A DNA stretch of 64,000 nucleotides, taken from the NCBI RefSeq assembly GCF_013315695.1, contig NZ_CP054353.1; one strand, given 5' to 3'. The notes below the pieces were generated by a model, which made no database searches, was not told where the DNA came from, and was given only the letters and a program-made list of their open reading frames with translations. Source of the DNA: Escherichia coli (GTDB lineage Bacteria > Pseudomonadota > Gammaproteobacteria > Enterobacterales > Enterobacteriaceae). Positions 1,237-49,355 of this stretch are shown here, piece after piece. The stretch's first letter is position 1, and the number at the start of each line of letters is the position of its first letter. The position numbers and the translations under genes are program-made.

Positions 1237-1395
1237 TGTTTTATTCCTGCATTTTTGCCACGAATTGCAACTGTCGGGCATGGTCGTCATCAATACGACG
1301 CACCCCGCTACCGCGAAAACCTTTGATCCTGAAAGACACGCAGTGCAGTTGGTTAATTAATGTCCGCGCTTCCCACGGCGCGCCATTACGCTATT

Positions 1396-1452
1396 GCAAA
1401 TGCAAATAGTTATCAATAATATTATCAATATATTTCTGCAATCAATAAAAAA
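1396..1452. promoter_or_regulatory. Divergent fepA/fes promoter region with overlapping Fur-box-like repeats
   Basis: AT-rich tgcaaatgcaaatagttatcaataatattatcaatatatttctgcaatcaataaaa resembles the Fur consensus GATAATGATAATCATTATC and sits between divergent iron-regulated genes. Confidence 0.6.
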
Positions 1453-1478
1453 TTGCACAGTAAACATGGGGTTATGGT

Positions 1479-2681
1479 GTGACGGCGTTAAAAGTAGGAA
1501 GTGAGAGCTGGTGGCAGTCGAAACATGGCCCGGAATGGCAGCGTCTGAATGACGAAATGTTTGAGGTCACTTTCTGGTGGCGTGATCCCCAAGGTTCTGA
1601 AGAATACTCGACGATAAAGCGCGTATGGGTCTACATCACTGGTGTGACCGATCACCATCAGAACACCCAGCCCCGGTCGATGCAGCGAATTGCAGGAACC
1701 GATGTTTGGCAGTGGACGACACAACTCAATGCCAACTGGCGCGGCAGCTACTGCTTTATTCCTACCGAACGCGATGACATTTTTTCTGCACCATCCCCCG
1801 ATCGCCTCGAATTACGCGAAGGCTGGCGAAAACTATTACCCCAGGCGATAGCCGATCCGCTGAATCCACAAAGCTGGAAAGGCGGGCGAGGGCACGCTGT
1901 TTCTGCACTCGAAATGCCGCAAGCGCCTCTGCAACCGGGATGGGATTGTCCGCAAGCGCCAGAAACGCCTGCCAAAGAAATTATCTGGAAAAGTGAGCGG
2001 TTGAAAAATTCACGCCGTGTATGGATTTTTACCACCGGCGATGCAACAGCAGAAGAACGCCCGCTGGCAGTTTTGCTTGATGGCGAATTTTGGGCGCAGA
2101 GTATGCCCGTCTGGCCTGCGCTAACTTCGCTGACCCATCGTCGGCAACTTCCTCCCGCCGTGTATGTGTTGATCGATGCTATCGACACCACGCACCGCGC
2201 CCACGAACTGCCGTGTAATGCGGATTTCTGGCTGGCAGTACAGCAAGAGTTATTACCCCTGGTGAAAGCTATTGCCTCTTTTAGCGATCGCGCCGATCGC
2301 ACCGTGGTCGCCGGGCAGAGTTTTGGTGGGCTTTCTGCGCTGTATGCCGGACTAAACTGGCCTGAACGCTTTGGCTGTGTATTAAGCCAGTCAGGATCGT
2401 ACTGGTGGCCGCATCGGGGCGGGCAGCAAGAAGGTGTTTTACTTGAGCAACTTAAAGCTGGTGAAGTTAGCGCCGAAGGTCTGCGCATTGTGCTGGAAGC
2501 GGGTATTCGCGAGCCGATGATCATGCGGGCCAATCAGGCGCTGTATGCGCAATTACACCTCATAAAAGAATCCATTTTCTGGCGTCAGGTTGACGGCGGA
2601 CATGATGCGCTTTGTTGGCGCGGTGGCTTGATGCAGGGGCTAATCGACCTCTGGCAACCACTTTTCCATGACAGGAGTTGA
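1479..2681 (+). CDS. fes: Enterobactin esterase Fes
   Basis: 400-aa ORF with GTG start (MTALKVGSESWWQ...), matching Fes by recall. A shorter internal start is possible. Confidence 0.9.
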   Translation: MTALKVGSESWWQSKHGPEWQRLNDEMFEVTFWWRDPQGSEEYSTIKRVWVYITGVTDHHQNTQPRSMQRIAGTDVWQWTTQLNANWRGSYCFIPTERDDIFSAPSPDRLELREGWRKLLPQAIADPLNPQSWKGGRGHAVSALEMPQAPLQPGWDCPQAPETPAKEIIWKSERLKNSRRVWIFTTGDATAEERPLAVLLDGEFWAQSMPVWPALTSLTHRRQLPPAVYVLIDAIDTTHRAHELPCNADFWLAVQQELLPLVKAIASFSDRADRTVVAGQSFGGLSALYAGLNWPERFGCVLSQSGSYWWPHRGGQQEGVLLEQLKAGEVSAEGLRIVLEAGIREPMIMRANQALYAQLHLIKESIFWRQVDGGHDALCWRGGLMQGLIDLWQPLFHDRS

Positions 2682-2683
2682 AT

Positions 2684-2902
2684 ATGGCATTCAGTAATCC
2701 CTTCGATGATCCGCAGGGAGCGTTTTACATTTTGCGCAATGCGCAGGGGCAATTCAGTCTGTGGCCGCAACAATGCGCCTTACCGGCAGGCTGGGACGTT
2801 GTGTGTCAGCCGCAGTCACAGGCGTCCTGCCAGCAGTGGCTGGAAGCCCACTGGCGTACTCTGACACCGACGAATTTCACCCAGTTGCAGGAGGTGCAAT
2901 GA
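2684..2902 (+). CDS. ybdZ: MbtH-like protein YbdZ (enterobactin synthase accessory protein)
   Basis: 72-aa ORF MAFSNPFDDPQGAFYILRNAQGQFSLWPQQCALPAGW...; the ATG at 2684 lies 3 nt after the fes stop, and the stop overlaps the entF start (ATGA). Confidence 0.9.
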   Translation: MAFSNPFDDPQGAFYILRNAQGQFSLWPQQCALPAGWDVVCQPQSQASCQQWLEAHWRTLTPTNFTQLQEVQ

Positions 2903-5900
2903 GCCAGCATTTACCTTTGGTCGCCGCACAGCCCGGCATCTGGATGGCAGAAAAACTGTCAGATTTACCCTCCGCCTGGAGCGTGGCGCATTACGTTGAG
3001 TTAACCGGAGAGGTTGATGCGCCATTACTGGCCCGCGCGGTGGTTGCCGGATTAGCGCAAGCAGATACGCTGCGGATGCGTTTTACGGAAGATAACGGCG
3101 AAGTCTGGCAGTGGGTCGATGATGCGCTGACGTTCGAACTGCCAGAAATTATCGACCTGCGAACCAACATTGATCCGCACGGTACTGCGCGGGCATTAAT
3201 GCAGGCGGATTTGCAACAAGATCTGCGCGTCGATAGCGGTAAACCACTGGTCTTTCATCAGTTGATACAGGTGGCGGATAACCGCTGGTACTGGTATCAG
3301 CGTTATCACCATTTGCTGGTCGATGGCTTCAGTTTCCCGGCCATTACCCGCCAGATCGCCAATATTTACTGCGCATGGCTGCGTGGCGAACCAACGCCTG
3401 CTTCGCCGTTTACGCCTTTCGCTGATGTAGTGGAAGAGTACCAGCAATACCGCGAAAGCGAAGCCTGGCAGCGTGATGCGGCATTCTGGGCGGAACAGCG
3501 TCGTCAATTGCCGCCGCCCGCGTCACTTTCTCCGGCACCTTTACCGGGGCGCAGCGCCTCGGCAGATATTCTGCGCCTGAAACTGGAATTTACCGACGGG
3601 GAATTCCGCCAGTTGGCTACGCAACTTTCAGGTGTGCAGCGTACCGATTTAGCCCTTGCGTTGGCAGCCTTGTGGCTGGGGCGATTGTGCAACCGCATGG
3701 ACTACGCTGCCGGATTTATCTTTATGCGTCGACTGGGCTCGGCGGCGCTGACGGCTACCGGACCCGTGCTCAACGTTTTGCCGTTGGGTATTCACATTGC
3801 GGCGCAAGAAACGCTGCCGCAACTGGCAACCCGACTGGCAGCACAACTGAAAAAAATGCGCCGCCATCAACGCTACGACGCCGAACAAATTGTCCGTGAC
3901 AGTGGGCGAGCGGCAGGAGAGGAACCGCTGTTCGGTCCGGTACTCAATATCAAGGTATTTGATTACCAACTGGATATTCCTGGTGTTCAGGCGCAAACCC
4001 ATACCCTGGCAACCGGTCCGGTTAATGACCTTGAACTGGCCCTGTTCCCGGATGAACACGGTGATTTGAGTATTGAGATCCTCGCCAATAAACAGCGTTA
4101 CGATGAGCCAACGTTAATTCAACACGCTGAACGCCTGAAAATGCTGATTGCGCAGTTCGCCGCGGATCCGTCGCTGTTGTGCGGCGATGTCGATATTATG
4201 CTGCCAGGCGAGTATGCGCAGCTGGCGCAGATCAACGCCACTCAGGTTGAGATTCCAGAAACCACGCTGAGCGCGCTGGTGGCAGAAAAAGCGGCAAAAA
4301 CACCGGATGCTCCGGCGCTGGCAGATGCGCGCTACCAGTTCAGCTATCGGGAAATGCGCGAGCAGGTAGTGGCGCTGGCAAATCTCCTGCGTGAGCGTGG
4401 CGTTAAACCGGGCGACAGCGTAGCGGTGGCGCTACCGCGCTCGGTCTTTTTGACTCTGGCGCTACATGCAATTGTTGAGGCTGGTGCGGCCTGGTTACCG
4501 CTGGATACCGGCTATCCGGACGATCGCCTGAAAATGATGCTGGAAGATGCGCGTCCGTCGCTGTTAATCACCACTGACGATCAACTGCCGCGCTTTGCCG
4601 ATGTTCCAGATTTAACCCGCCTTTGCTATAACGCCCCGCTTACACCGCAGGGCAGTGCGCCGCTGCAGCTTTCACAACCGCACCACACGGCTTATATCAT
4701 CTTCACCTCCGGTTCCACCGGCAGACCAAAAGGGGTAATGGTCGGGCAGACGGCTATCGTTAATCGCCTGCTTTGGATGCAAAACCATTACCCGCTTACA
4801 GGCGAAGATGTCGTTGCCCAAAAAACGCCGTGCAGTTTTGATGTCTCGGTGTGGGAGTTTTTCTGGCCGTTTATTGCCGGGGCTAAACTGGTGATGGCTG
4901 AACCGGAAGCGCACCGCGACCCGCTCGCTATGCAGCAATTCTTTGCCGAATATGGTGTAACGACCACGCACTTTGTGCCGTCGATGCTGGCGGCATTTGT
5001 TGCATCGCTGACGCCGCAAACCGCTCGCCAGAGTTGCGCGACGTTGAAACAGGTTTTCTGTAGTGGTGAAGCCTTACCGGCTGATTTATGCCGCGAATGG
5101 CAACAGTTAACCGGCGCGCCGTTGCATAATCTATATGGCCCGACGGAAGCGGCGGTAGATGTCAGTTGGTATCCGGCTTTTGGCGAGGAACTGGCAGAGG
5201 TGCGCGGCAGCAGTGTGCCGATTGGTTATCCGGTGTGGAATACGGGCCTGCGCATTCTCGATGCGATGATGCATCCGGTGCCGCCGGGTGTGGCGGGAGA
5301 TCTCTATCTCACCGGTATTCAACTGGCGCAGGGGTATCTTGGACGACCCGATCTGACCGCCAGCTGCTTTATTGCCGATCCTTTTGCCCCAGGTGAACGG
5401 ATGTACCGTACCGGCGATGTGGCCCGCTGGCTGGATAACGGCGCAGTGGAGTACCTCGGGCGCAGTGACGATCAGCTAAAAATTCGCGGGCAGCGTATCG
5501 AACTGGGCGAAATTGATCGCGTGATGCAGGCGCTGCCGGATGTCGAACAAGCCGTTACCCACGCCTGTGTGATTAACCAGGCGGCAGCCACTGGTGGTGA
5601 TGCGCGTCAGTTGGTGGGCTATCTGGTGTCGCAATCAGGTCTGCCGTTGGATACCAGCGCATTACAGGCGCAGCTTCGTGAAACATTGCCACCACATATG
5701 GTACCGGTGGTTCTGCTGCAACTTCCACAGTTACCACTTAGCGCCAACGGCAAGCTGGATCGCAAAGCCTTACCGTTGCCTGAACTGAAGGCACAAGCGC
5801 CTGGGCGTGCGCCGAAAGCGGGCAGTGAAACGATTATCGCCGCGGCATTCTCGTCGTTGCTGGGTTGTGACGTGCAGGATGCCGATGCTGATTTCTTTGC

Positions 5901-6780
5901 GCTTGGCGGTCATTCGCTACTGGCAATGAAACTGGCTGCGCAGTTAAGTCGGCAGTTTGCCCGCCAGGTGACGCCGGGGCAAGTGATGGTCGCGTCAACT
6001 GTCGCCAAACTGGCAACGATTATTGATGGTGAAGAAGACAGCTCCCGGCGCATGGGATTCGAAACCATTCTGCCGTTGCGTGAAGGTAATGGCCCGACGC
6101 TGTTTTGTTTCCATCCGGCCTCCGGTTTTGCCTGGCAGTTCAGCGTGCTCTCGCGTTATCTCGATCCACAATGGTCGATTATCGGCATTCAGTCGCCGCG
6201 CCCCAATGGCCCCATGCAGACCGCGGCAAATCTGGATGAAGTCTGCGAAGCGCATCTGGCAACGTTACTTGAGCATCAACCGCACGGCCCTTATTACCTG
6301 CTGGGTTATTCGCTGGGCGGTACGCTGGCGCAGGGTATTGCGGCGCGGCTGCGTGCCCGTGGCGAACAGGTGGCATTTCTTGGCTTGCTGGATACCTGGC
6401 CGCCAGAAACGCAAAACTGGCAGGAAAAAGAGGCTAATGGCCTGGACCCGGAAGTGCTGGCGGAGATTAACCGCGAGCGCGAGGCCTTCCTGGCGGCACA
6501 GCAGGGAAGTACTTCAACGGAGTTGTTTACCACCATTGAAGGCAACTACGCTGATGCTGTGCGCCTGCTGACGACTGCTCATAGCGTACCGTTTGAAGGT
6601 AAAGCGACGCTGTTTGTTGCTGAACGCACGCTTCAGGAAGGTATGAATCCCGAACGCGCCTGGTCGCCGTGGATTACGGAGCTGGATATCTATCGTCAGG
6701 ATTGTGCGCATGTGGATATTATCTCTCCAGGGGCGTTTGAAAAAATTGGGCCGATTATTCGCGCTACGCTAAACAGGTAA
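2899..6780 (+). CDS. entF: Enterobactin synthase component F (NRPS: C-A-PCP-TE, serine-activating)
   Basis: ORF starting MSQHLPLVAAQPGIWMAEKL; the track ORF from 2761 is an upstream in-frame extension. Contains the adenylation motif TSGSTGRPKG and a GYSLGG thioesterase motif. Confidence 0.93.
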   Translation: MSQHLPLVAAQPGIWMAEKLSDLPSAWSVAHYVELTGEVDAPLLARAVVAGLAQADTLRMRFTEDNGEVWQWVDDALTFELPEIIDLRTNIDPHGTARALMQADLQQDLRVDSGKPLVFHQLIQVADNRWYWYQRYHHLLVDGFSFPAITRQIANIYCAWLRGEPTPASPFTPFADVVEEYQQYRESEAWQRDAAFWAEQRRQLPPPASLSPAPLPGRSASADILRLKLEFTDGEFRQLATQLSGVQRTDLALALAALWLGRLCNRMDYAAGFIFMRRLGSAALTATGPVLNVLPLGIHIAAQETLPQLATRLAAQLKKMRRHQRYDAEQIVRDSGRAAGEEPLFGPVLNIKVFDYQLDIPGVQAQTHTLATGPVNDLELALFPDEHGDLSIEILANKQRYDEPTLIQHAERLKMLIAQFAADPSLLCGDVDIMLPGEYAQLAQINATQVEIPETTLSALVAEKAAKTPDAPALADARYQFSYREMREQVVALANLLRERGVKPGDSVAVALPRSVFLTLALHAIVEAGAAWLPLDTGYPDDRLKMMLEDARPSLLITTDDQLPRFADVPDLTRLCYNAPLTPQGSAPLQLSQPHHTAYIIFTSGSTGRPKGVMVGQTAIVNRLLWMQNHYPLTGEDVVAQKTPCSFDVSVWEFFWPFIAGAKLVMAEPEAHRDPLAMQQFFAEYGVTTTHFVPSMLAAFVASLTPQTARQSCATLKQVFCSGEALPADLCREWQQLTGAPLHNLYGPTEAAVDVSWYPAFGEELAEVRGSSVPIGYPVWNTGLRILDAMMHPVPPGVAGDLYLTGIQLAQGYLGRPDLTASCFIADPFAPGERMYRTGDVARWLDNGAVEYLGRSDDQLKIRGQRIELGEIDRVMQALPDVEQAVTHACVINQAAATGGDARQLVGYLVSQSGLPLDTSALQAQLRETLPPHMVPVVLLQLPQLPLSANGKLDRKALPLPELKAQAPGRAPKAGSETIIAAAFSSLLGCDVQDADADFFALGGHSLLAMKLAAQLSRQFARQVTPGQVMVASTVAKLATIIDGEEDSSRRMGFETILPLREGNGPTLFCFHPASGFAWQFSVLSRYLDPQWSIIGIQSPRPNGPMQTAANLDEVCEAHLATLLEHQPHGPYYLLGYSLGGTLAQGIAARLRARGEQVAFLGLLDTWPPETQNWQEKEANGLDPEVLAEINREREAFLAAQQGSTSTELFTTIEGNYADAVRLLTTAHSVPFEGKATLFVAERTLQEGMNPERAWSPWITELDIYRQDCAHVDIISPGAFEKIGPIIRATLNR

Positions 6781-6795
6781 ATTAATATTATCTAT

Positions 6796-6834
6796 AAACC
6801 CATAATTACAGGAAATAATTATGGGTTTATCATT
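6796..6834 (+). terminator. Rho-independent terminator after entF
   Basis: Perfect 12-bp inverted repeat aaacccataatt / aattatgggttt with a 9-nt loop, followed by a T-rich tract. Confidence 0.7.
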
Positions 6835-6995
6835 TATTTAATTTATAAGTTTGGTGGATATTTCTCTTAAATAGAGTGAATGTTGCATTCAGTGGAAGGA
6901 ATTTACAAACTTCAGCTTCGGATAATTCTCACCAACTGGTAAAGTGAGCGCCGTGGAGATTTCCCCCTATTGGACTCATTTTCAGGTTATACCCC

Positions 6996-8129
6996 ATGTC
7001 ATCACTGAATATTAAACAGGGAAGTGACGCTCATTTTCCCGAGTATCCTCTGGCGTCGCCCAGTAATAATGAAATTGATTTACTTAATCTAATTGAAGTT
7101 TTATGGCGGGCCAAAAAAACGGTCATGGCGGTCGTTTTTGCGTTTGCCTGCGCAGGTTTACTGATCTCTTTCATCCTACCGCAAAAATGGACCTGCGCGG
7201 CGGTTGTCACGCCTCCAGAACCTGTTCAGTGGCAGGCGCTTGAGAAAACATTCACTAAGCTTCGTGTGCTGGATCTGGATATCAAAATTGATCGTACAGA
7301 AGCATTTAACCTGTTTATCAAGAAGTTTCAGTCGGTTAGCTTGCTGGAAGAGTACCTGCGTTCATCACCTTATGTGATGGACCAATTAAAAGAGGCGAAA
7401 ATCGATGAACTGGATTTGCATCGCGCAATTGTCGCATTGAGCGAAAAAATGAAAGCGGTTGATGACAATGCCAGTAAGAAAAAAGATGAACCGTCACTGT
7501 ATACCTCCTGGACGCTAAGTTTTACCGCGCCAACCAGTGAAGAGGCGCAGACCGTTTTGAGCGGGTATATCGATTATATCTCTGCGTTGGTGGTGAAAGA
7601 GTCGATAGAAAACGTCCGTAATAAACTGGAGATCAAAACCCAGTTTGAAAAAGAAAAACTGGCTCAGGATCGCATTAAAACGAAAAATCAACTTGATGCA
7701 AACATTCAGCGCCTCAATTATTCACTCGACATTGCCAACGCGGCAGGAATTAAAAAGCCCGTTTACAGTAATGGTCAGGCCGTTAAAGATGACCCCGATT
7801 TCTCTATTTCTCTCGGCGCAGACGGTATTGAACGCAAACTGGAAATTGAAAAAGCGGTTACTGACGTTGCGGAACTGAACGGTGAATTACGTAATCGTCA
7901 GTATCTTGTTGAGCAGCTAACAAAAGCAAATATCAACGATGTGAATTTTACGCCGTTTAAATATCAGTTAAGCCCGTCATTGCCAGTGAAAAAAGACGGT
8001 CCGGGTAAGGCGATTATTGTGATCCTTTCTGCGATGATCGGCGGGATGGTGGCTTGTGGTGGCGTGCTGTTGCGCTATGCGATGGCATCCAGAAAACAGG
8101 ATGCCGTGATGGAAGAGCACTTAGTTTAA
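6996..8129 (+). CDS. fepE: Polysaccharide co-polymerase family protein FepE (O-antigen chain-length regulator-like)
   Basis: 377-aa ORF MSSLNIKQGSDAHF..., recalled FepE sequence. Confidence 0.9.
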   Translation: MSSLNIKQGSDAHFPEYPLASPSNNEIDLLNLIEVLWRAKKTVMAVVFAFACAGLLISFILPQKWTCAAVVTPPEPVQWQALEKTFTKLRVLDLDIKIDRTEAFNLFIKKFQSVSLLEEYLRSSPYVMDQLKEAKIDELDLHRAIVALSEKMKAVDDNASKKKDEPSLYTSWTLSFTAPTSEEAQTVLSGYIDYISALVVKESIENVRNKLEIKTQFEKEKLAQDRIKTKNQLDANIQRLNYSLDIANAAGIKKPVYSNGQAVKDDPDFSISLGADGIERKLEIEKAVTDVAELNGELRNRQYLVEQLTKANINDVNFTPFKYQLSPSLPVKKDGPGKAIIVILSAMIGGMVACGGVLLRYAMASRKQDAVMEEHLV

Positions 8130-8941
8130 ATCTTGGCAGTTGAAGGTGCCGTTCGTCCGAGCGGCACCACGAGCGGCGTTCCGGCAACCGGATCGTCAAT
8201 AATCATGCAGCGCAGACCATAAATGCGCTCAATCAGTTCAGCAGTGACAATCTCCTTCGGCGCTCCCTGAGCAACAATTTTCCCTTCCCGCAATGCAATC
8301 AAATGGCTGGCGTAACGACAGGCCTGATTAAGATCGTGCAGCACCGCCGCCAGGGTATAGCCTTTCTCGCGGTTCAGTTCGCTTAACAGTTCCAGTAGAT
8401 CAATCTGATGACTGATATCCAGCCAGGTCGTGGGTTCGTCGAGCAGCATAATTGCCGTTTCCTGGGCCAGCACCATTGCTATCCACGCTCGCTGGCGTTG
8501 TCCGCCAGAAAGGGTATCCACGCTTTGATCTGCCAGATGAGTGATTCCCGTGGCCTGCATCGCTTTTGTGACTGCCTCTTCATCTTCTTTCCGCCAGCGG
8601 GTAAACAGCGGTTGATGCGGGTAACGTCCACGCGCCACCAGCTCCTGCACGGTGATATCGCCCGGCGTGGTAGCATTTTGCGCCAACAGACCAATCCGGC
8701 GTGCAACCTCTTTACTGGCGTAATGTTGAATGTGCTCACCATCCAGCCAGACATGCCCGTGAGCAGGCGTCATCAGGCGGCTTAAAGTACGCAGTAAAGT
8801 GGATTTACCGCAGCCATTTGGCCCGATAATTGCCGTGAAGTGACCATCAGGTATTTCTACAGTCAGATTCTCCGCAACGGTATATTTGCCATATCCGAGG
8901 GTTAACTGTTCGCCGCGCAAACGGGCTACTGATTCGGTCAT
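8126..8941 (-). CDS. fepC: Ferric enterobactin ABC transporter ATPase FepC
   Basis: Start MTESVARLRGEQLTLGYGKYTV at the ATG at 8941; Walker A GPNGCGKST; 271 aa. The track ORF is extended upstream to 9082. Confidence 0.92.
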   Translation of the reverse strand: MTESVARLRGEQLTLGYGKYTVAENLTVEIPDGHFTAIIGPNGCGKSTLLRTLSRLMTPAHGHVWLDGEHIQHYASKEVARRIGLLAQNATTPGDITVQELVARGRYPHQPLFTRWRKEDEEAVTKAMQATGITHLADQSVDTLSGGQRQRAWIAMVLAQETAIMLLDEPTTWLDISHQIDLLELLSELNREKGYTLAAVLHDLNQACRYASHLIALREGKIVAQGAPKEIVTAELIERIYGLRCMIIDDPVAGTPLVVPLGRTAPSTAKI

Positions 8942-9930
8942 TTTTTGCGAGACTCCTGAATTAACAAGACGATAAGGTAAATACCGCCGAGGCTGACGGT
9001 AACGACGCCAACCGGAAGTTGATACGGCATAAACAGTTGTTGGGCGCAGAGATCGGCCGCCAGCAGTAACAACGCCCCGCACAGCGCCGCCTGGGTCAGC
9101 CCCCAGCGAGCGGTGCCGCTAATGCGTCGGGCAATGTGCGGCGCGACTAAAGCAATAAAGGAAATCGGCCCGGCAAGCGCTGTTGCCGCAGCGGTAAGCA
9201 CCACTGCAACCAGCATCATTAACAGACGCGAACGTTCGACGCTGACGCCCAGCGCACACGCGGTATCATCGCCCATTTCCAGCAAGCGCATCCGGCGTAC
9301 CAGTAAGGCGGCGGCAATTAGCATCAATATAATGATGGGTGCGGAAGGCGAGGTTTTTGCCCACGTCAGGCCGTTGAGCGATCCGGCATTCCATAAACCC
9401 GCTGTTAGCGCCGTTTCTAAAGACGCTTTCAGCAACAGCCAGGTATTAAAGGCCACCAGCATGGCGCGAACGCCGATACCAATAATAATCAACCGAAAGG
9501 TGTCGATGCCGTTACGCCAGGCGAGCAGCCAGACCAGCAGCGAAGTGACAATGCCGCCCACCATTGCTGCCAGCGCGATAGCCGTCAGATCCTGACCAAA
9601 CAGCACCATCGCCACCAGCACGCCGCTCCACGCCCCGGTGTTAAAGCCCATTACGTCAGGGCTACCGAGCGGGTTACGCATCAGCGACTGAAAAATCGCG
9701 CCGCTGACGCCCAGAGCCGCGCCAATTAACAGCGCCATCAGCACGCGTGGTAAACGCCATTCAGTGACCACCATCGTCATACTGCGCGGCGCATCGCCCA
9801 TCAGCGCGGCGAATACCTGCGAGGTTTCCAGCGTGACGGTACCGCTGCGTAATCCCCAGATACCTGCAACCACACAGGCGGTAATTAGCAGCAAACAGGT
9901 GATGATTAATCGGCGAGAGACGTAAATCAT
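8938..9930 (-). CDS. fepG: Ferric enterobactin ABC transporter permease FepG
   Basis: 330-aa polytopic membrane ORF; its stop overlaps the fepC start (ATGA). Confidence 0.92.
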   Translation of the reverse strand: MIYVSRRLIITCLLLITACVVAGIWGLRSGTVTLETSQVFAALMGDAPRSMTMVVTEWRLPRVLMALLIGAALGVSGAIFQSLMRNPLGSPDVMGFNTGAWSGVLVAMVLFGQDLTAIALAAMVGGIVTSLLVWLLAWRNGIDTFRLIIIGIGVRAMLVAFNTWLLLKASLETALTAGLWNAGSLNGLTWAKTSPSAPIIILMLIAAALLVRRMRLLEMGDDTACALGVSVERSRLLMMLVAVVLTAAATALAGPISFIALVAPHIARRISGTARWGLTQAALCGALLLLAADLCAQQLFMPYQLPVGVVTVSLGGIYLIVLLIQESRKK

Positions 9931-11041: not shown

Positions 11042-12292
11042 ATGAATAAACAATCCTGGCTGCTTAACCTCAGCCTGTTGAAAACGCACCCGGCGTTTCG
11101 CGCAGTATTCCTCGCTCGTTTTATCTCAATTGTTTCTCTGGGTTTGCTCGGCGTCGCGGTGCCGGTGCAGATCCAGATGATGACGCATTCTACCTGGCAG
11201 GTGGGGCTTTCGGTGACGCTGACCGGCGGCGCGATGTTTGTTGGCCTGATGGTCGGCGGTATGCTGGCGGATCGCTATGAGCGTAAAAAAGTGATTTTGC
11301 TGGCGCGCGGCACCTGTGGCATTGGCTTCATTGGACTGTGCCTGAACGCGCTGCTGCCGGAGCCGTCATTGCTGGCAATCTATTTACTTGGTTTATGGGA
11401 TGGTTTTTTCGCATCACTTGGCGTTACGGCGCTACTGGCGGCGACACCTGCACTGGTAGGGCGTGAAAACCTAATGCAGGCCGGGGCGATCACCATGTTG
11501 ACTGTGCGTCTGGGATCGGTGATTTCGCCCATGATTGGCGGTTTACTGCTGGCGACCGGAGGCGTAGCTTGGAACTACGGGCTGGCGGCGGCGGGCACGT
11601 TTATTACCTTGCTACCGTTGTTAAGCCTTCCGGCGTTGCCACCACCGCCGCAGCCGCGTGAGCATCCGTTGAAATCATTACTGGCAGGATTTCGTTTTCT
11701 ACTCGCCAGCCCGCTGGTGGGAGGGATTGCGTTGCTGGGTGGTTTATTGACGATGGCGAGCGCGGTGCGGGTCCTGTATCCGGCGCTGGCTGACAACTGG
11801 CAGATGTCGGCGGCACAGATTGGTTTTCTCTATGCGGCGATTCCGCTCGGCGCGGCTATTGGCGCGTTAACCAGCGGGAAGCTGGCACATAGTGCGCGAC
11901 CAGGGTTATTGATGCTGCTCTCCACGCTGGGATCGTTCCTTGCCATTGGTCTGTTTGGCCTGATGCCGATGTGGATTTTAGGCGTGGTTTGCCTGGCGCT
12001 GTTCGGTTGGTTGAGCGCGGTTAGTTCGTTGCTGCAATATACAATGCTGCAAACGCAAACCCCGGAAGCGATGTTAGGGCGGATTAACGGTTTGTGGACG
12101 GCGCAAAACGTGACGGGCGATGCCATAGGCGCAGCGCTGCTGGGCGGTTTGGGCGCGATGATGACACCGGTTGCTTCCGCAAGCGCGAGCGGTTTTGGTT
12201 TGTTGATTATCGGCGTGTTGTTATTGCTGGTGCTGGTGGAGTTGCGACGTTTTCGCCAGACGCCGCCGCAGATGACAGCGTCCGACAGTTAA
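11042..12292 (+). CDS. entS: Enterobactin exporter EntS (MFS transporter)
   Basis: 416-aa [33 protein letters not shown]..., multi-pass membrane protein. Confidence 0.92.
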
Positions 12293-12295
12293 TGC

Positions 12296-13252
12296 TTAAA
12301 ACAGCGCCTTAAGTCGTTCCAGCACTTGCATGGCGCTGTAGTAATCCAGGCGGAACGTCTCGGTTCCCAGCGCATAAACCTGCTTGTTTTGTACTGCAGG
12401 CAGGTGCGCGAGCAGTGGATTGGCATAAATCGCATCGGCATCTTTCTGATCACCAGCGAACAGGAATAGTGAATCGCCATTTAACCCTGCAGCCAGATTT
12501 TCTCCACCAAGCTGAATGATGTCATGGCGTTTGCCTTGGCTTTGGCTGGCGTTTAACCCTGCGGGCAATTTCGCCAACGTAAAGCCGAGTTGTTCCAGCA
12601 TCTGCCCTTGTGCTGATTCCGGCGTCCAGAGATTGGCACTGTGTGCAGCGGCGGTATAGACAATGGCAGTGACCGGCTGCGGCGGTAATTTGATTTGCTC
12701 TTTCGCCGCCGCCAGTTGCTTATCAAACTGTGCAATCCGCTCTGCCGCTTGTTTCTCATGCCCGGTAATTTCGCCAAGCTGCGTTAACAGCGACTGCCAG
12801 CTTTTGTCGTCGTAATTGATGATTAATGTTGGGGCGATGGTAGAAAGCTGATCGTACAGCGCCAGCGCCGAATCCCCGCCGGTTGCGCTAATTAAAATCA
12901 GATCCGGCATTTGCGCGGCAACGGCTTCGGCGCTCGGTTCGCCGATATAGATCCGTTGCAGTTTGCGTTCTTTCGCCACCTTGCTCCACTGGCGTAAAAA
13001 GCCCTGGTCATCCGCGACGCGGTTATTTGGCGTGGTCGCGCCGCTGGCGATCACCGGAGCATCAATCGCCAGCAGTGAGCCGGTCAGGGTGACGCTGGTG
13101 GAAACTATACGCTGCGGCTGGCTTTCCAGGGTATGAGTGCCCCGGCTGTCAGTAATCTGACGCGGCCAGTCGGCGGCCTGAACTGCGACTATTCCTGAAA
13201 GCAAAAGTCCTGTTAATAGAAGGGCGTTGCGGTAGAGCGGGGCGAGTCTCAC
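12296..13252 (-). CDS. fepB: Ferric enterobactin periplasmic binding protein FepB
   Basis: 318-aa ORF with GTG start ([20 protein letters not shown]...), signal peptide. Confidence 0.9.
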
Positions 13253-16249: not shown

Positions 16250-17106
16250 ATGGCTATTCCAAAATTACAGGCTTACGCACTGCCGGAGTCTCACGATATT
16301 CCGCACAATAAAGTCGACTGGGCCTTTGAACCGCAACGTGCCGCGTTGTTAATCCATGATATGCAGGACTATTTTGTCAGCTTCTGGGGTGAGAACTGCC
16401 CGATGATGGAGCAGGTGATCGCGAATATTGCGGCACTACGCGACTACTGCAAACAGCACAATATCCCGGTTTATTACACCGCCCAGCCGAAAGAGCAGAG
16501 CGATGAAGATCGGGCGCTGTTGAATGATATGTGGGGGCCTGGCCTGACCCGTTCGCCGGAACAGCAAAAGGTGGTGGATCGCCTGACGCCAGATGCCGAC
16601 GACACGGTGCTGGTGAAGTGGCGCTACAGCGCGTTTCATCGTTCCCCGCTGGAGCAAATGCTCAAAGAGAGTGGACGTAACCAGCTGATTATTACCGGGG
16701 TATATGCCCACATTGGCTGTATGACCACCGCAACGGACGCATTTATGCGCGATATTAAACCGTTTATGGTGGCGGATGCGCTGGCCGATTTCAGCCGTGA
16801 CGAGCATTTGATGTCGCTGAAATATGTGGCCGGACGTTCTGGTCGGGTGGTGATGACCGAAGAATTGCTGCCAGCACCTATCCCCGCCAGCAAAGCGGCG
16901 CTGCGTGAGGTGATCCTGCCGTTGCTGGACGAGTCCGATGAACCGTTCGATGACGACAACCTGATCGACTACGGTCTGGATTCGGTGCGCATGATGGCGC
17001 TGGCGGCGCGCTGGCGCAAAGTGCATGGCGATATCGACTTTGTCATGCTGGCGAAAAACCCGACCATCGACGCCTGGTGGAAGCTACTCTCCCGCGAGGT
17101 GAAATA

Positions 17107-17107
<1 letters not shown>
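16250..17107 (+). CDS. entB: Isochorismatase / aryl carrier protein EntB
   Basis: 285-aa ORF MAIPKLQAYALPESHDIPHNKVDWAF... Confidence 0.93.
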
Positions 17108-18269
<1,162 letters not shown>

Positions 18270-22071: not shown

Positions 22072-23232
22072 ATGACAAATAACCCTCTGATTCCACAAAG
22101 CAAACTTCCACAACTTGGCACCACTATTTTCACCCAGATGAGCGCGCTGGCGCAGCAACACCAGGCGATTAACCTTTCGCAAGGCTTTCCTGATTTTGAT
22201 GGTCCGCGCTATTTACAAGAGCGGCTGGCGTACCACGTTGCCCAGGGGGCAAACCAATACGCGCCTATGACTGGCGTGCAGGCCTTGCGCGAGGCGATTG
22301 CTCAGAAAACGGAACGTCTGTATGGCTATCAACCGGATGCCGATAGTGATATCACCGTAACGGCAGGGGCGACGGAAGCGTTATATGCAGCGATTACCGC
22401 ATTGGTGCGCAATGGTGATGAAGTGATCTGCTTTGATCCCAGCTATGACAGTTACGCCCCCGCCATCGCGCTTTCTGGGGGAATAGTGAAGCGTATGGCA
22501 CTGCAACCACCGCATTTTCGCGTGGACTGGCAGGAATTTGCCGCATTGTTAAGCGAGCGCACCCGACTGGTGATCCTCAACACCCCGCATAACCCCAGTG
22601 CAACTGTCTGGCAGCAGGCTGATTTCTCCGCTCTGTGGCAGGCGATTGCCGGGCACGAGATTTTTGTCATTAGCGATGAAGTCTACGAGCACATCAATTT
22701 TTCACAACAGGGCCATGCCAGCGTGCTGGCGCATCCGCAATTGTGTGAGCGAGCGGTGGCGGTGTCATCGTTTGGCAAGACCTATCATATGACCGGCTGG
22801 AAAGTGGGGTATTGCGTTGCACCTGCGCCCATCAGCGCCGAGATCCGCAAAGTGCATCAGTATCTGACCTTTTCGGTGAATACCCCGGCACAGTTGGCGC
22901 TTGCCGATATGCTACGTGCAGAACCTGAGCATTATCTTGCGTTACCGGACTTTTATCGCCAGAAGCGCGATATTCTGGTGAATGCCTTAAATGAAAGTCG
23001 GCTGGAGATTTTACCGTGCGAAGGTACATACTTTTTGCTGGTGGATTACAGCGCCGTATCTACGATGGATGATGTTGAGTTTTGCCAGTGGCTGACGCGG
23101 GAGCACGGCGTAGCGGCGATTCCGCTGTCGGTGTTTTGCGCCGATCCCTTCCCACATAAACTGATTCGTCTCTGTTTTGCCAAAAAGGAATCGACGTTGC
23201 TGGCAGCAGCAGAACGCCTGCGCCAGCTGTAG
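22072..23232 (+). CDS. ybdL: PLP-dependent aminotransferase YbdL (methionine aminotransferase)
   Basis: 386-aa ORF MTNNPLIPQSKLPQLGTTIFTQMSALAQQHQAINLSQGFPDFDGP... (class I aminotransferase). Confidence 0.9.
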   Translation: MTNNPLIPQSKLPQLGTTIFTQMSALAQQHQAINLSQGFPDFDGPRYLQERLAYHVAQGANQYAPMTGVQALREAIAQKTERLYGYQPDADSDITVTAGATEALYAAITALVRNGDEVICFDPSYDSYAPAIALSGGIVKRMALQPPHFRVDWQEFAALLSERTRLVILNTPHNPSATVWQQADFSALWQAIAGHEIFVISDEVYEHINFSQQGHASVLAHPQLCERAVAVSSFGKTYHMTGWKVGYCVAPAPISAEIRKVHQYLTFSVNTPAQLALADMLRAEPEHYLALPDFYRQKRDILVNALNESRLEILPCEGTYFLLVDYSAVSTMDDVEFCQWLTREHGVAAIPLSVFCADPFPHKLIRLCFAKKESTLLAAAERLRQL

Positions 23233-23862
23233 TTATTTAACCGTCCAGGCGCGGGAAAATTGACGGTCGGCAAACAACTCTTGCAGGCCGTTAATTTGCT
23301 TCAGGCGCAACACTTCGTCGCTGTCCATTCCCAGCTCTTTGCCAATTTTATTATCGTCCCATCCCAACTGGCTGAGTTCACGGACGATTTCTGACATGGC
23401 AGTGATTTGGTGACGTCCACGAGCGCGATTATGACGAATAGTCGCGGCGATGCGTTGATTACGCGTACCTTCCAGACAGGTCACCGGCAAATAACCTTTT
23501 AAGCGTAATTTTAACGATGATGAGCCTTTACCAATTTCATGGCGGTGAAAACCATCCACGATTTCCAGGGCATTTTTATCCGTATGCGTGACCACAATGG
23601 GTTGGGTAAAACCATCTATTTCAATGGATTTTTTCAGCAGTTTTTTTTCGGGTGGTGCCACGTTGTTTGGGTTGTAATCATTAGGCATAAGTTGGCTGTT
23701 TTTAACCCACAGAACGCAATCCACTGGCTCTTCACGAAAGGGGCTAACCTGATGGATCGCCATGCGGATTTCATTAATCGCTTTGATGCGATCATCTTCC
23801 GGCAAGCTGGCGAGAAATTGGGTTAAATCCTGCGTTAATCGTTGTTGCATAGTATCCCCCAT
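23233..23862 (-). CDS. ybdM: ParB/sulfiredoxin-like domain protein YbdM (IbrB-like)
   Basis: 209-aa ORF; ParB-like core …IVDGFHRHE…; its start overlaps the 3' end of ybdN by 28 nt. Confidence 0.85.
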   Translation of the reverse strand: MGDTMQQRLTQDLTQFLASLPEDDRIKAINEIRMAIHQVSPFREEPVDCVLWVKNSQLMPNDYNPNNVAPPEKKLLKKSIEIDGFTQPIVVTHTDKNALEIVDGFHRHEIGKGSSSLKLRLKGYLPVTCLEGTRNQRIAATIRHNRARGRHQITAMSEIVRELSQLGWDDNKIGKELGMDSDEVLRLKQINGLQELFADRQFSRAWTVK

Positions 23863-27055: not shown

Positions 27056-27426
27056 TAATTTGTCCTTTTCAGTCAGTGCAAAAGTCGAGTAAAAGGCATA
27101 ACCTATCACTGTCATAGGTAAGAGCTTAGATCAGGTGATTGCCCTTTGTTTATGAGGGTGTTGTAATCCATGTCGTTGTTGCATTTGTAAAGGCAACACC
27201 TCAGCCTGCAGGCAGGCGCTGAAGATACCAAAGGGTAGTTCAGATTACACGGTCACCTGGAAAGGGGGCCATTTTACTTTTTATCGCCGCTGGCGGTGCA
27301 AAGTTCACAAAGTTGTCTTACGAAGGTTGTAAGGTAAAACTTATCGATTTGATAATGGAAACGCATTAGCCGAATCGGCAAAAATTGGTTACCTTACATC
27401 TCATCGAAAACACGGAGGAAGTATAG
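27056..27426. promoter_or_regulatory. dsbG/ahpC divergent promoter region (OxyR-regulated by established knowledge; sites not precisely mapped here)
   Basis: Intergenic; ATAG/CTAT-like elements around 27320-27365. The boundaries given are the whole intergenic span, not a mapped site. Confidence 0.45.
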
Positions 27427-31040: not shown

Positions 31041-31082
31041 CATACCCAAAAGAAAACCCTCACCGTCAGGCGGCGAGGGTTT
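31041..31082 (-). terminator. Rho-independent terminator downstream of rna (reverse strand)
   Basis: aaaccctc…gagggttt stem; the reverse strand is followed by ttcttttggg. Confidence 0.55.
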
Positions 31083-31228
31083 AACGCACATGATGATACT
31101 GACTGTTGCTCACTCTTTGAAGTGATTTGCGTCACATTCAGGGAATTCCTCAATGTAGCGCATTATGTATAAATCTTAATCGTCATGGTTTATGGAAGAC
31201 GAATTAGCGTGTTTTGTAAATCAGAGGA

Positions 31229-44150: not shown

Positions 44151-44324
44151 GACAAATGAAGTTTTAGTAAATTCTTTAAAATCAACCACTAAAATAATTA
44201 ACATCAAAAATAACGCGACTTTTATCACTTTTTAGTAAAGTTGCACTGGACAAAGCGTACCACAATTGGTGTACTGGTAACCGACACAGCATTTGTGTCT
44301 ATTTTTCATGTAAAGGTAATTTTG

Positions 44325-44534
44325 ATGTCTAAGATTAAAGGTAACGTTAAGTGGTTTAATGAGTCCAAAGGATTCGGTTTCATTACTCCGGAAGACGGCA
44401 GCAAAGACGTGTTCGTACACTTCTCTGCAATCCAGACTAATGGTTTTAAAACTCTTGCTGAAGGTCAGCGCGTAGAGTTCGAAATCACTAACGGTGCCAA
44501 AGGCCCTTCTGCTGCAAACGTAATCGCTCTGTAA
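44325..44534 (+). CDS. cspE: Cold-shock-family protein CspE
   Basis: [69 protein letters not shown], 69 aa. Confidence 0.95.
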
Positions 44535-44553
44535 GATACGTCAGCAAGAATTC

Positions 44554-44582
44554 AAAACCCGCTTAATCAGCGGGTTTTTTTT
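44554..44582. terminator. Rho-independent terminator between convergent cspE and crcB, likely bidirectional
   Basis: aaaacccgc-ttaatca-gcgggtttt followed by a T-run of 8 or more; A-run on the 5' side. Confidence 0.8.
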
Positions 44583-48569: not shown

Positions 48570-48578
48570 CTGCAAGTG
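48570..48578. repeat. Left copy of the 9-bp target-site duplication (ctgcaagtg) flanking IS1
   Basis: Identical 9-mer immediately outside each IS1 end. Confidence 0.85.
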
Positions 48579-48633
48579 GGTGATGCTGCCAACTTACTGA
48601 TTTAGTGTATGATGGTGTTTTTGAGGTGCTCCA

Positions 48634-48909
48634 GTGGCTTCTGTTTCTATCAGCTGTCCCTCCTGTTCAGCTACTGACGGGGTGGTGCGTAACGGCAAAA
48701 GCACCGCCGGACATCAGCGCTATCTCTGCTCTCACTGCCGTAAAACATGGCAACTGCAGTTCACTTACACCGCTTCTCAACCCGGTACGCACCAGAAAAT
48801 CATTGATATGGCCATGAATGGCGTTGGATGCCGGGCAACAGCCCGCATTATGGGCGTTGGCCTCAACACGATTTTACGTCACTTAAAAAACTCAGGCCGC
48901 AGTCGGTAA
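48634..48909 (+). CDS. insA: IS1 InsA (transposition repressor / N-terminal part of the InsAB' transposase)
   Basis: [94 protein letters not shown] start. Confidence 0.95.
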
Positions 48910-49331
48910 CCTCGCGCATACAGCCGGGCAGTGACGTCATCGTCTGCGCGGAAATGGACGAACAGTGGGGCTATGTCGGGGCTAAATCGCGCCAGCGCTG
49001 GCTGTTTTACGCGTATGACAGGCTCCGGAAGACGGTTGTTGCGCACGTATTCGGTGAACGCACTATGGCGACGCTGGGGCGTCTTATGAGCCTGCTGTCA
49101 CCCTTTGACGTGGTGATATGGATGACGGATGGCTGGCCGCTGTATGAATCCCGCCTGAAGGGAAAGCTGCACGTAATCAGCAAGCGATATACGCAGCGAA
49201 TTGAGCGGCATAACCTGAATCTGAGGCAGCACCTGGCACGGCTGGGACGGAAGTCGCTGTCGTTCTCAAAATCGGTGGAGCTGCATGACAAAGTCATCGG
49301 GCATTATCTGAACATAAAACACTATCAATAA
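48828..49331 (+). CDS. insB: IS1 InsB frame; the functional transposase InsAB' is made by a -1 ribosomal frameshift from insA
   Basis: 167-aa [67 protein letters not shown]…. Confidence 0.9.
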
Positions 49332-49346
49332 GTTGGAGTCATTACC

Positions 49347-49355
49347 CTGCAAGTG
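49347..49355. repeat. Right copy of the 9-bp target-site duplication (ctgcaagtg) flanking IS1
   Basis: Identical to 48570-48578. Confidence 0.85.

What the first reader, a model, noticed from the sequence alone, without database searches (positions are those of the whole stretch)
2679..2902. Many start/stop overlaps indicate translational coupling throughout the window
Overlapping or abutting codons occur at fes/ybdZ (3-nt gap), ybdZ/entF (ATGA), fepG/fepC (ATGA), entB/entA (TAATG), citE/citD (ATGA), citX/citG (26 nt), dpiB/dpiA (32 nt), ybdN/ybdM (28 nt) and lptE/holA (1 nt). This is typical operon organisation and supports the chosen start codons over the longer track ORFs.
Basis: seen in the sequence. 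Interest (0 to 1): 0.1.

Follow-up and report, generated by a model that had tools for sequence, protein, structure and literature searches.

The report
Ordinary overlapping gene junctions in operons
The start/stop overlaps are real, but they are the normal, already published layout of E. coli operons (enterobactin, citrate lyase, lptE-holA), so the finding is ordinary and needs only small corrections.

Summary
The window is E. coli chromosome, fepA to rihA, colinear with NZ_LR898874.1. All RefSeq genes map cleanly onto it.

**Observation.** Eight of the nine listed junctions are exactly as described. The fes/ybdZ gap is 2 nt (TGAatATG), not 3. Six more tight junctions were missed.

**Is it unusual?** No. 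Twelve of 41 co-directional pairs (29%) lie at -8..+6 nt, against 24% published for the E. coli genome (p=0.46). Every one of these distances is already listed for K-12 in Huber et al. 2023, Table S2.

**Are the junctions real initiation sites?**
- Six exact -4/-1 phases are far more than a uniform spacing null gives (p=4e-7).
- Shine-Dalgarno (SD) motifs before these starts are much stronger than before internal ATGs (p=5e-8).

**Is it translational coupling?**
- Likely but unproven for the -4..+3 junctions.
- Poorly supported for the three long overlaps (-26, -28, -32).
  - The dpiB/dpiA overlap looks like a stop-loss tail of dpiB.
  - The ybdM and citG starts are ambiguous: 28 or 16 nt, and 26 or 20 nt.

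**Start codons.** The "supports chosen starts" argument applies to only five genes. Independent evidence agrees for those five.

**Verdict:** already known, low interest.

The parts
2679..2686 (+). fes stop (TGA 2679-2681), 2-nt spacer, ybdZ start (ATG 2684-2686). The SD AGGAG lies inside the last fes codons. An in-frame TTG at 2678 forms TTGA with the fes stop.
   Evidence: The gap is +2 in K-12. It is 2 nt only in the five Escherichia loci and 10-30 nt in 34 other Enterobacteriaceae.
2684..2902 (+). ybdZ, a 72-aa MbtH-like protein that partners EntF.
   Evidence: PF03621, E=6.8e-22, residues 4-54. PDB 5JA1 holds YbdZ as chain B and EntF as chain A.
2899..2902 (+). ATGA overlap: entF start and ybdZ stop. 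The SD CAGGAGGTG lies inside ybdZ.
   Evidence: Spacing is -4 in 23 of 39 Enterobacteriaceae loci, -8 in 7, +1 in 1 and +9/+10 in 8.
8938..8941 (-). ATGA overlap: fepG stop and fepC start.
   Evidence: COG pair FepG@FepC has median -3.4, n=375.
9927..9930 (-).
   Evidence: K-12 distance is -4, marked 'CMPLX yes'.
17105..17109 (+). TAATG: entB stop and entA start share one base.
   Evidence: K-12 distance is -1.
   Evidence: K-12 distance is +2.
23835..23862 (-). ybdN/ybdM overlap: 28 nt if ybdM starts at the annotated ATG, 16 nt if at the second ATG (codon 5).
   Evidence: Escherichia orthologues are annotated at 209 aa and Citrobacter/Intestinirhabdus at 205 aa, although both ATGs are present in all.
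34516..34541 (-). citX/citG overlap: 26 nt, or 20 nt if citG starts at its codon-3 ATG.
   Evidence: in-frame stop 6 nt upstream of the annotated ATG, and the next ATG after codon 3 is at +84. Overlap is -29 in Salmonella and Buttiauxella and -14 in Providencia.
   Evidence: K-12 distance is +3.
37519..37522 (-). ATGA overlap: citD stop and citE start. The SD GGGAGGA lies 6 nt upstream.
   Evidence: COG pair CitD@CitE has median -4, n=160.
40894..40925 (+). dpiB/dpiA 32-nt overlap. The dpiA ATG has no SD. The dpiB TGA sits in the GTT-GAG codons of DpiA's 'IVEDE' motif.
   Evidence: The overlap is conserved in Salmonella, Buttiauxella and Erwinia; the spacing is +1 in Providencia.
   Evidence: K-12 distance is +1.
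59416..59420 (-). TGATG: lptE stop and holA start share base 59418, with a weak SD.
   Evidence: K-12 distance is -1.

Best explanation
These are ordinary junctions between neighbouring genes of E. coli operons: fes-ybdZ-entF, fepDGC, entCEBAH, citCDEFXG, dpiBA, ybdNM, leuS-lptE-holA-nadD and rsfS-rlmH-mrdAB.

**Tight junctions (-4, -1, +1..+3).** At the twelve tight junctions the downstream gene's ribosome-binding site lies inside the last codons of the upstream gene.
- A ribosome finishing the upstream gene therefore terminates on or next to the next start codon.
- It most likely promotes initiation there, either by re-initiating or by keeping the site unfolded.
- Partners such as FepD/G/C, CitD/E and YbdZ/EntF would then be made in linked amounts.
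- The sequence arrangement and the SD motifs are shown. The dependence of downstream translation on upstream translation is inferred from other E. coli pairs, not shown here.

**Long overlaps (26-32 nt).** These are a different case.
- They exist because the upstream gene lacks an earlier stop and runs on into the next gene.
- The DpiB tail is simply DpiA's N-terminal coding read in another frame.
- They probably confer little or no re-initiation coupling.
For: - **Coordinates and motifs:**
- **Same distances in K-12**, with -4 then -1 the commonest E. coli classes.
- **Phases are non-random:** six exact -4/-1 phases, P=3.8e-7 against a uniform null.
- **SDs are embedded and strong:** 8 of 12 tight starts reach -6 kcal/mol or stronger, against 3.4% of 881 internal ATGs (p=5e-8).
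- **Sites are more structured:** predicted opening energy of the initiation region has a median of 12.0 kcal/mol for tight junctions, against about 8.5 for other genes (p=0.038). This fits sites that benefit from upstream ribosomes.
- **Experimental precedent:** four of five native E. coli -4 pairs are coupled, and coupling is lost with distance. Coupling is most efficient from -4 to +3.
- **Partners interact physically:** PDB 5JA1 is an EntF-YbdZ complex. The fepDGC and citDE pairs are scored as complex subunits.
- **The ybdZ-entF spacing stays short:** in 39 Enterobacteriaceae it always falls in -8, -4, +1 or +9/+10.
- **Long overlaps are unavoidable.** In-frame stops lie at -6, -9 and -30, and the DpiA receiver domain starts at about residue 5.
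- **The DpiB tail is not conserved as protein,** although the overlap itself is conserved.
- **A recent stop-loss example.** The Escherichia fes end is a lineage-specific extension over what is an intergenic SD region in other genera.
Against: - No measurement of coupling exists here for any of these pairs.
- No gene-specific start-site or N-terminal data could be retrieved.
- Strong SDs would also allow independent initiation.
- bioBF shows that a -4 overlap can be uncoupled.
- The review attributes the abundance of -4 partly to how easily it evolves.
- Convergent pairs, which cannot be coupled, are packed just as tightly in this window.
- The opening-energy difference rests on 12 genes and is confounded by coding-region composition.
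- The 32-nt dpiBA overlap is conserved across at least four genera, so some function for it cannot be excluded.
Confidence: 0.8

Rival explanations
1. Independent initiation. Each downstream gene is translated mainly by ribosomes recruited afresh to its own Shine-Dalgarno site. The overlaps are neutral by-products of compaction and of how easily NTGA arises, with little real coupling.
For: - SDs at tight junctions are as strong as or stronger than at free-standing genes: median -7.05 against -5.7 kcal/mol.
- The ybdZ-entF junction switches freely between -4, -8, +1 and +9/+10 among genera, always with an SD.
- The ybdZ SD is conserved whether fes ends 2 or 30 nt away.
- bioBF is uncoupled.
- Three of ten convergent pairs are also within 3 nt.
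- The review notes that -4 evolves easily.
Against: - Four of five tested native E. coli -4 pairs are coupled, and removing the SD usually lowers re-initiation rather than proving independence.
- holA, nadD and dpiA have very weak SDs (-3.7, -2.8 and -1.8 kcal/mol).
- Initiation regions at -4/-1 junctions are predicted to be more structured.
- Short overlaps are enriched 4.5-fold for complex subunits in E. coli.
Confidence: 0.25
2. Annotation artefact. The overlaps, especially the long ones, come from wrongly chosen start codons, and the true genes do not overlap.
For: - ybdM is annotated at 209 aa in Escherichia but 205 aa in Citrobacter and Intestinirhabdus, although both ATGs are present in all.
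- The second ybdM ATG has the better SD: -8.4 kcal/mol at 4 nt against -5.6 at 10 nt.
- citG has a second ATG at codon 3.
Against: - The alternative starts still overlap, by 16 and 20 nt.
- The next candidates lie at +57/+99 (ybdM), +84 (citG) and +54 (dpiA). Using them would delete conserved sequence or the receiver-domain beta-1 strand.
- DpiA orthologues are 226 aa with 100% coverage across genera.
- The -4/-1 starts have well-placed SDs, and the proteins align from profile position 1-4.
Confidence: 0.03
3. The long overlaps are a functional long-range coupling device, like the phage fr/MS2 coat-lysis pairs. Ribosomes terminating 20-30 nt downstream move back to, or unfold, the upstream-lying start. 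This sets, for example, the DpiB:DpiA ratio.
For: - The 32-nt dpiBA overlap is conserved in Escherichia, Salmonella, Buttiauxella and Erwinia.
- The dpiA start has no SD.
- The citX/citG overlap persists at -14 to -29 across genera.
- Phage coat-lysis pairs couple at -38 and -50.
Against: - Synthetic constructs show no coupling at -25.
- The DpiB tail is not conserved as protein.
- The dpiB stop is held in place by DpiA's invariant V-E codons, so its conservation needs no selection on the overlap itself.
- Providencia manages with +1, the paralogue dcuSR uses -4, and the CitA@CitB family median is -3.4.
- The dpiA initiation region is predicted to be open (6.3 kcal/mol), which suits SD-independent de novo initiation.
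Confidence: 0.1

Closest known systems
Native E. coli -4 overlapping pairs shown to be coupled by termination-reinitiation (hyfHI, astDB, ydbH/ynbE, menDH; Huber et al. 2019, 2023; PMC6728339, PMC10666635)
   Same: Co-directional genes with an ATGA or TRATG stop/start overlap and an SD inside the upstream gene. Several pairs encode interacting proteins. The pairs of this window appear in that paper's K-12 table with identical distances.
   Different: None of the window's pairs was among those tested experimentally. Coupling here is inferred by analogy.
bioB/bioF, a -4 overlap without coupling (Huber et al. 2019)
   Same: The same ATGA arrangement in a biosynthetic operon.
   Different: bioF initiated de novo despite a weak SD. 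It shows that the motif alone does not prove coupling. Whether any pair here behaves like it is unknown.
Classical closely spaced coupled pairs (trpE/trpD, galT/galK +3, rplK/rplA +3), as reviewed in PMC12548453
   Same: Spacings of +1..+3 nt, as at fes/ybdZ, entA/entH, citF/citX, mrdA/mrdB, rsfS/rlmH and holA/nadD. Coupling is reported to be efficient from -4 to +3.
   Different: Those pairs were tested by moving stop codons. Here only the spacing is known. The fes/ybdZ spacing is Escherichia-specific.
Phage fr/MS2 coat-lysis long overlaps (-38/-50 nt) coupled by scanning or RNA unfolding (PMC12548453)
   Same: The downstream start lies tens of nucleotides upstream of the upstream gene's stop, as at citX/citG, ybdN/ybdM and dpiB/dpiA.
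   Different: There is no evidence of coupling here. Synthetic -25 constructs show none. The DpiB tail looks like a stop-loss read-through rather than a designed element.

Membership tests
Translationally coupled gene pair (termination-reinitiation type) | Two co-directional neighbouring genes | tested here: met
   RefSeq coordinates mapped onto the window. All listed pairs are on the same strand.
Translationally coupled gene pair (termination-reinitiation type) | Stop/start overlap or very short spacing (-8..+6 nt; NTGA or TRATG) | tested here: met
   Met for 12 pairs: four at -4, two at -1 and six at +1..+3. Not met for citX/citG (-26), ybdN/ybdM (-28) and dpiB/dpiA (-32).
Translationally coupled gene pair (termination-reinitiation type) | Both genes on one mRNA | not testable with these tools
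   Overlapping coding regions leave no room for a terminator plus promoter. Co-transcription is inferred from spacing and from established operon knowledge; no transcript data were examined.
Translationally coupled gene pair (termination-reinitiation type) | Downstream translation depends on translation of the upstream gene reaching the junction | not testable with these tools
   This needs reporter or premature-stop experiments. No data for these pairs were found in the literature held.
Translationally coupled gene pair (termination-reinitiation type) | Shine-Dalgarno motif inside the upstream gene (frequent in this family, not obligatory) | tested here: met
   Eight of 12 tight starts reach -6 kcal/mol or stronger at 3-11 nt spacing, against 3.4% of internal ATGs. 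The motif is weak at holA, nadD and dpiA.
MbtH-like protein family (ybdZ, the gene inside the given coordinates) | Match to Pfam PF03621 above the gathering score, small size, adjacency to an NRPS gene | tested here: met
   77.1 bits against a cut-off of 27, residues 4-54 of 72. entF follows with an ATGA overlap. The complex is solved as PDB 5JA1.
Long-overlap coupling of the phage coat-lysis type | Downstream start 20-50 nt upstream of the upstream stop, and initiation dependent on upstream termination | tested here: inconclusive
   The geometry is met for three pairs. Dependence was not testable. Comparative data favour a neutral stop-loss origin for dpiB/dpiA.

The most novel reading that the evidence does not exclude
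The 32-nt dpiB/dpiA overlap may be a selected long-overlap coupling device that fixes the kinase-to-regulator ratio, rather than a neutral read-through tail. Three features allow this reading:
- The overlap is conserved across at least four enterobacterial genera.
- The dpiA start has no SD.
- The dpiB stop is locked inside the codons of DpiA's invariant IVEDE motif.

If true, it would be a cellular counterpart of the phage coat-lysis arrangement.
Probability: 0.08. Interest if true: 0.3.

Novelty: already known. Interest (0 to 1): 0.06.

Why it matters
It matters little beyond annotation hygiene.

- The junctions are the textbook layout of E. coli operons, and each distance is already tabulated for K-12.
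- Practical value is limited to three points:
  - The fes/ybdZ spacing needs correcting.
  - The ybdM and citG start codons are unresolved between two nearby ATGs.
  - Overlaps longer than about 8 nt should not be read as evidence of coupling.
- The ybdZ-entF junction is a tidy natural example. One orthologous junction moves only among the preferred spacing classes (-8, -4, +1, +9/+10) across genera.

Tried and rejected
- **Start-site profiling and N-terminomics.** I looked for gene-level data for these genes.
  - The retapamulin preprint has no supplements held.
  - The TRAINSPOTTER supplements gave no hit by gene name or by UniProt accessions recalled from memory and not verified.
  - The TetRP supplements gave no hit.
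  - The TetRP paper itself notes that start signals are ambiguous where an initiation site lies inside a well-expressed upstream gene.
- **Literature on coupling or N-termini** of the fep, ent, ybdZ-entF and holA pairs found nothing relevant.
- **Misannotation as the cause of the long overlaps** was rejected. In-frame stops, domain boundaries and conserved lengths leave at least 16-32 nt of overlap.
- **TTG at 2678 as the ybdZ start** (it would form a TTGA overlap with fes) was rejected.
  - The SD abuts it with 0 nt spacing.
  - The codon is not a start in most genera.
  - The MbtH profile fits the ATG start.
- **Extended entF ORF from 2761** was rejected.
  - 16 of 39 orthologous loci have no in-frame start upstream of the aligned ATG.
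  - The upstream open frame is as short as 3 nt.
  - The NCBIfam EntF model aligns from profile position 1.
- **Enrichment of tight junctions** in this window over the genome was rejected (p=0.46).
- **Rfam and tRNA scans** found nothing at the junctions.

Full report
**What the window is.** A megablast of 1300-7000 matched 5,415 complete E. coli genomes. The best match was NZ_LR898874.1, strain MSB1_4I. The window is the reverse complement of that record, 3678759-3742758, with two mismatches in the first 32.7 kb. I took the RefSeq feature tables and converted them with window = 3742759 - record. Every complete CDS then gave a clean ORF with proper start and stop. The only exceptions are the flagged pagP pseudogene and the frameshifted IS1 transposase. 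The gene order is fepA, fes-ybdZ-entF-fepE, fepCGD, entS, fepB, entCEBAH, cstA ... ybdNM, citR ... citTGXFEDC, dpiBA ... lipB ... rlpA-mrdBA-rlmH-rsfS, cobC-nadD-holA-lptE-leuS.

**Checking the observation.** All 41 co-directional neighbour pairs were measured.
  - ybdZ/entF ATGA (2899-2902)
  - fepG/fepC ATGA (8938-8941)
  - entB/entA TAATG (17105-17109)
  - citD->citE ATGA (37519-37522)
  - citX/citG, 26 nt
  - dpiB/dpiA, 32 nt
  - ybdN/ybdM, 28 nt
  - lptE/holA TGATG (shared base 59418)
- The fes/ybdZ gap is 2 nt (TGA-at-ATG, 2679-2686), not 3.
- The finding's coordinates, 2679-2902, run from the fes stop to the ybdZ stop. They therefore contain the ybdZ gene with both of its junctions.

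**Is it more than chance?** It is against a naive null, but not against E. coli.
- Six exact -4/-1 phases among 41 pairs have P=3.8e-7 if spacing were uniform over the observed range.
- The starts at the 12 tight junctions carry much stronger, correctly spaced SD motifs than 881 internal ATGs of the same genes. The medians are -7.05 and -2.20 kcal/mol (p=5e-8).
- However, 12/41 (29%) within -8..+6 nt does not differ from the published genome-wide 707/2,987 (24%) (p=0.46).
- Convergent pairs, which cannot be coupled, are packed just as tightly. Examples are the fepE/fepC TTAA overlap, ybdL/ybdM abutting and entS/fepB at 3 nt. That is 3/10 against 15/41 within 3 nt (Fisher p=1.0).

**Already in print.** Supplementary Table S2 of Huber et al. 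2023 lists the same pairs for K-12 with identical distances:

| Pair | Distance (nt) |
|---|---|
| fes-ybdZ | +2 |
| ybdZ-entF | -4 |
| fepG-fepC | -4 |
| fepD-fepG | -4 |
| entB-entA | -1 |
| entA-entH | +2 |
| ybdN-ybdM | -28 |
| citX-citG | -26 |
| citF-citX | +3 |
| citD-citE | -4 |
| dpiB-dpiA | -32 |
| holA-nadD | +1 |
| lptE-holA | -1 |

Their COG-pair table shows that several of these junctions are short across many species:

| COG pair | Median (nt) | n |
|---|---|---|
| CitD@CitE | -4 | 160 |
| FepG@FepC | -3.4 | 375 |
| FepD@FepG | -3.4 | 440 |
| HolA@NadD | -4 | 117 |
| LptE@HolA | +2 | 363 |
| CitA@CitB | -3.4 | 423 |

**The ybdZ junctions across genera.** One genome scan with YbdZ returned 41 enterobacterial loci.
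- In the 39 usable loci the ybdZ-entF spacing is -4 in 23, -8 in 7, +1 in 1 and +9/+10 in 8. An SD is always present. This one junction wanders only among the spacing classes that are preferred genome-wide.
- The fes-ybdZ gap is 2 nt only in the five Escherichia loci and 10-30 nt elsewhere.
- In other genera Fes ends at ...LWQPLxx*. The ybdZ SD region is intergenic there, while in Escherichia the fes frame has been extended over it. Initiation at ybdZ therefore predates the near-abutment and does not need it.
- YbdZ is an MbtH-like protein (PF03621). It is solved in complex with EntF in PDB 5JA1. The ATGA pair thus encodes physical partners, although the published table marks it 'CMPLX not'.

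**Start codons.** Only five of the downstream genes have a longer ORF: ybdZ, entF, fepC, entA and citE. In each, the annotated start has the best-placed SD. Further evidence:
- The annotated proteins align from profile positions 1-4 of their families.
- 16 of 39 loci have no in-frame start upstream of the entF ATG. The upstream open frame is not conserved and ranges from 3 to 276 nt.
- The TTG at 2678 would form TTGA with the fes stop, but the SD touches it (0 nt spacing).

**The long overlaps.** They are real but are a different kind of thing.
- In-frame stops lie 6, 9 and 30 nt upstream of the citG, dpiA and ybdM starts. The next downstream candidates would delete conserved sequence.
- The exact length is uncertain for two of them.
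  - citG could start at its codon-3 ATG, giving a 20-nt overlap.
  - ybdM could start at its codon-5 ATG, giving a 16-nt overlap. That ATG has the better SD. It is also the start annotated in Citrobacter and Intestinirhabdus (205 aa), although both ATGs are present in all.
- For dpiB/dpiA the 32-nt overlap is conserved in Salmonella, Buttiauxella and Erwinia, while Providencia has +1.
  - The alignment shows that conserved DpiB ends at ...PKVK.
  - The following 11-12 residues differ between genera. They are simply DpiA's N-terminal coding read in another frame.
  - The dpiB TGA lies in the GTT-GAR codons of DpiA's invariant IVEDE.
  - That is the signature of a lost stop codon followed by read-through to the next available stop.
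  - The paralogous dcuS-dcuR pair has -4.
- The review of coupling reports that efficiency falls faster with added overlap than with added spacing, with none detected at -25 nt in synthetic constructs. Phage coat-lysis pairs nevertheless couple at -38/-50.

**Mechanism.** For the tight junctions the best-supported reading is the standard one. The downstream initiation region is embedded in the upstream coding sequence, and terminating ribosomes promote initiation by re-initiation, by unfolding, or both.
- Four of five native E. coli -4 pairs are coupled.
- Coupling is optimal from -4 to +3.
- Complex subunits are enriched among short overlaps.
- In this window, initiation regions at tight junctions are predicted to be harder to open. 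The median is 12.0 against about 8.5 kcal/mol (p=0.038, small sample).
- holA and nadD have weak SDs and are the best candidates for real dependence on coupling.

None of this is measured for these genes. The uncoupled bioBF pair shows that the motif alone is not proof.

**Verdict.** The feature is ordinary and already known, so interest is low.

Noticed in passing
window 48570-49355: An IS1A copy lies between ybeF and lipB. Its inverted ends are at 48578-48601 and 49324-49347, and a 9-bp target-site duplication (CTGCAAGTG) flanks it. Only 9 of 5,426 complete E. coli genomes carry an IS1 at this site.
   Followed up: yes
window 43589-44150 (+): pagP is a frameshifted pseudogene in this strain. 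RefSeq flags it, its length is not a multiple of 3, and it has 7 in-frame stops.
   Followed up: no
window 23835-23862 (-); L051 and L052 around 2501: The ybdM start is annotated inconsistently between genera. It is 209 aa (MGDTMQQR...) in Escherichia and 205 aa (MQQR...) in Citrobacter, although both ATGs are present in all. In Intestinirhabdus the record uses an ATT start codon to keep 205 aa.
   Followed up: partly
window 40894-40925 (+); L044-L050: The dpiB stop codon is embedded in the GTT-GAR codons of DpiA's invariant IVEDE motif. The 32-nt overlap is conserved in four genera, but Providencia has +1.
   Followed up: partly
window 8126-8129, 23232-23233, 12292-12296: Convergent gene pairs are packed very tightly. 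fepE/fepC share TTAA as a double stop, ybdL/ybdM abut with 0 nt, and entS/fepB are 3 nt apart.
   Followed up: partly
L048-L050 (cit operons of Salmonella, Buttiauxella, Providencia); window 37816-37829: citC->citD is a -4 overlap in the three other genera but +14 nt in E. coli. The citD->citE distance is called as -4, -10 and -1 in those three.
   Followed up: no
L008; L030 and L031: These look like database contamination or mislabelling. A 223-bp 'Lactobacillus johnsonii ATCC 33200' scaffold is 94% identical at protein level to E. coli YbdZ. A 'Chryseobacterium sp. 18061' contig carries an enterobacterial fes-ybdZ-entF locus very like that of 'Citrobacter sp. 18056'.
   Followed up: no
window 44134-44582 (+), 31045-31153 (-), 27189-27282 (+): Rfam hits at gathering score: a cspA-type thermoregulator over cspE, the rnk leader, and sRNA STnc70 between dsbG and ahpC.
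   Followed up: no
window 2684-2902 (ybdZ) compared with PDB 4gr4, 4gr5 and 6n8e: MbtH-like domains occur fused to NRPS chains in solved structures. The ATGA-overlapped ybdZ-entF pair is one frameshift away from such a fusion. The published K-12 table marks this pair as 'CMPLX not' (no information on complex formation), despite the 5JA1 complex.
   Followed up: partly
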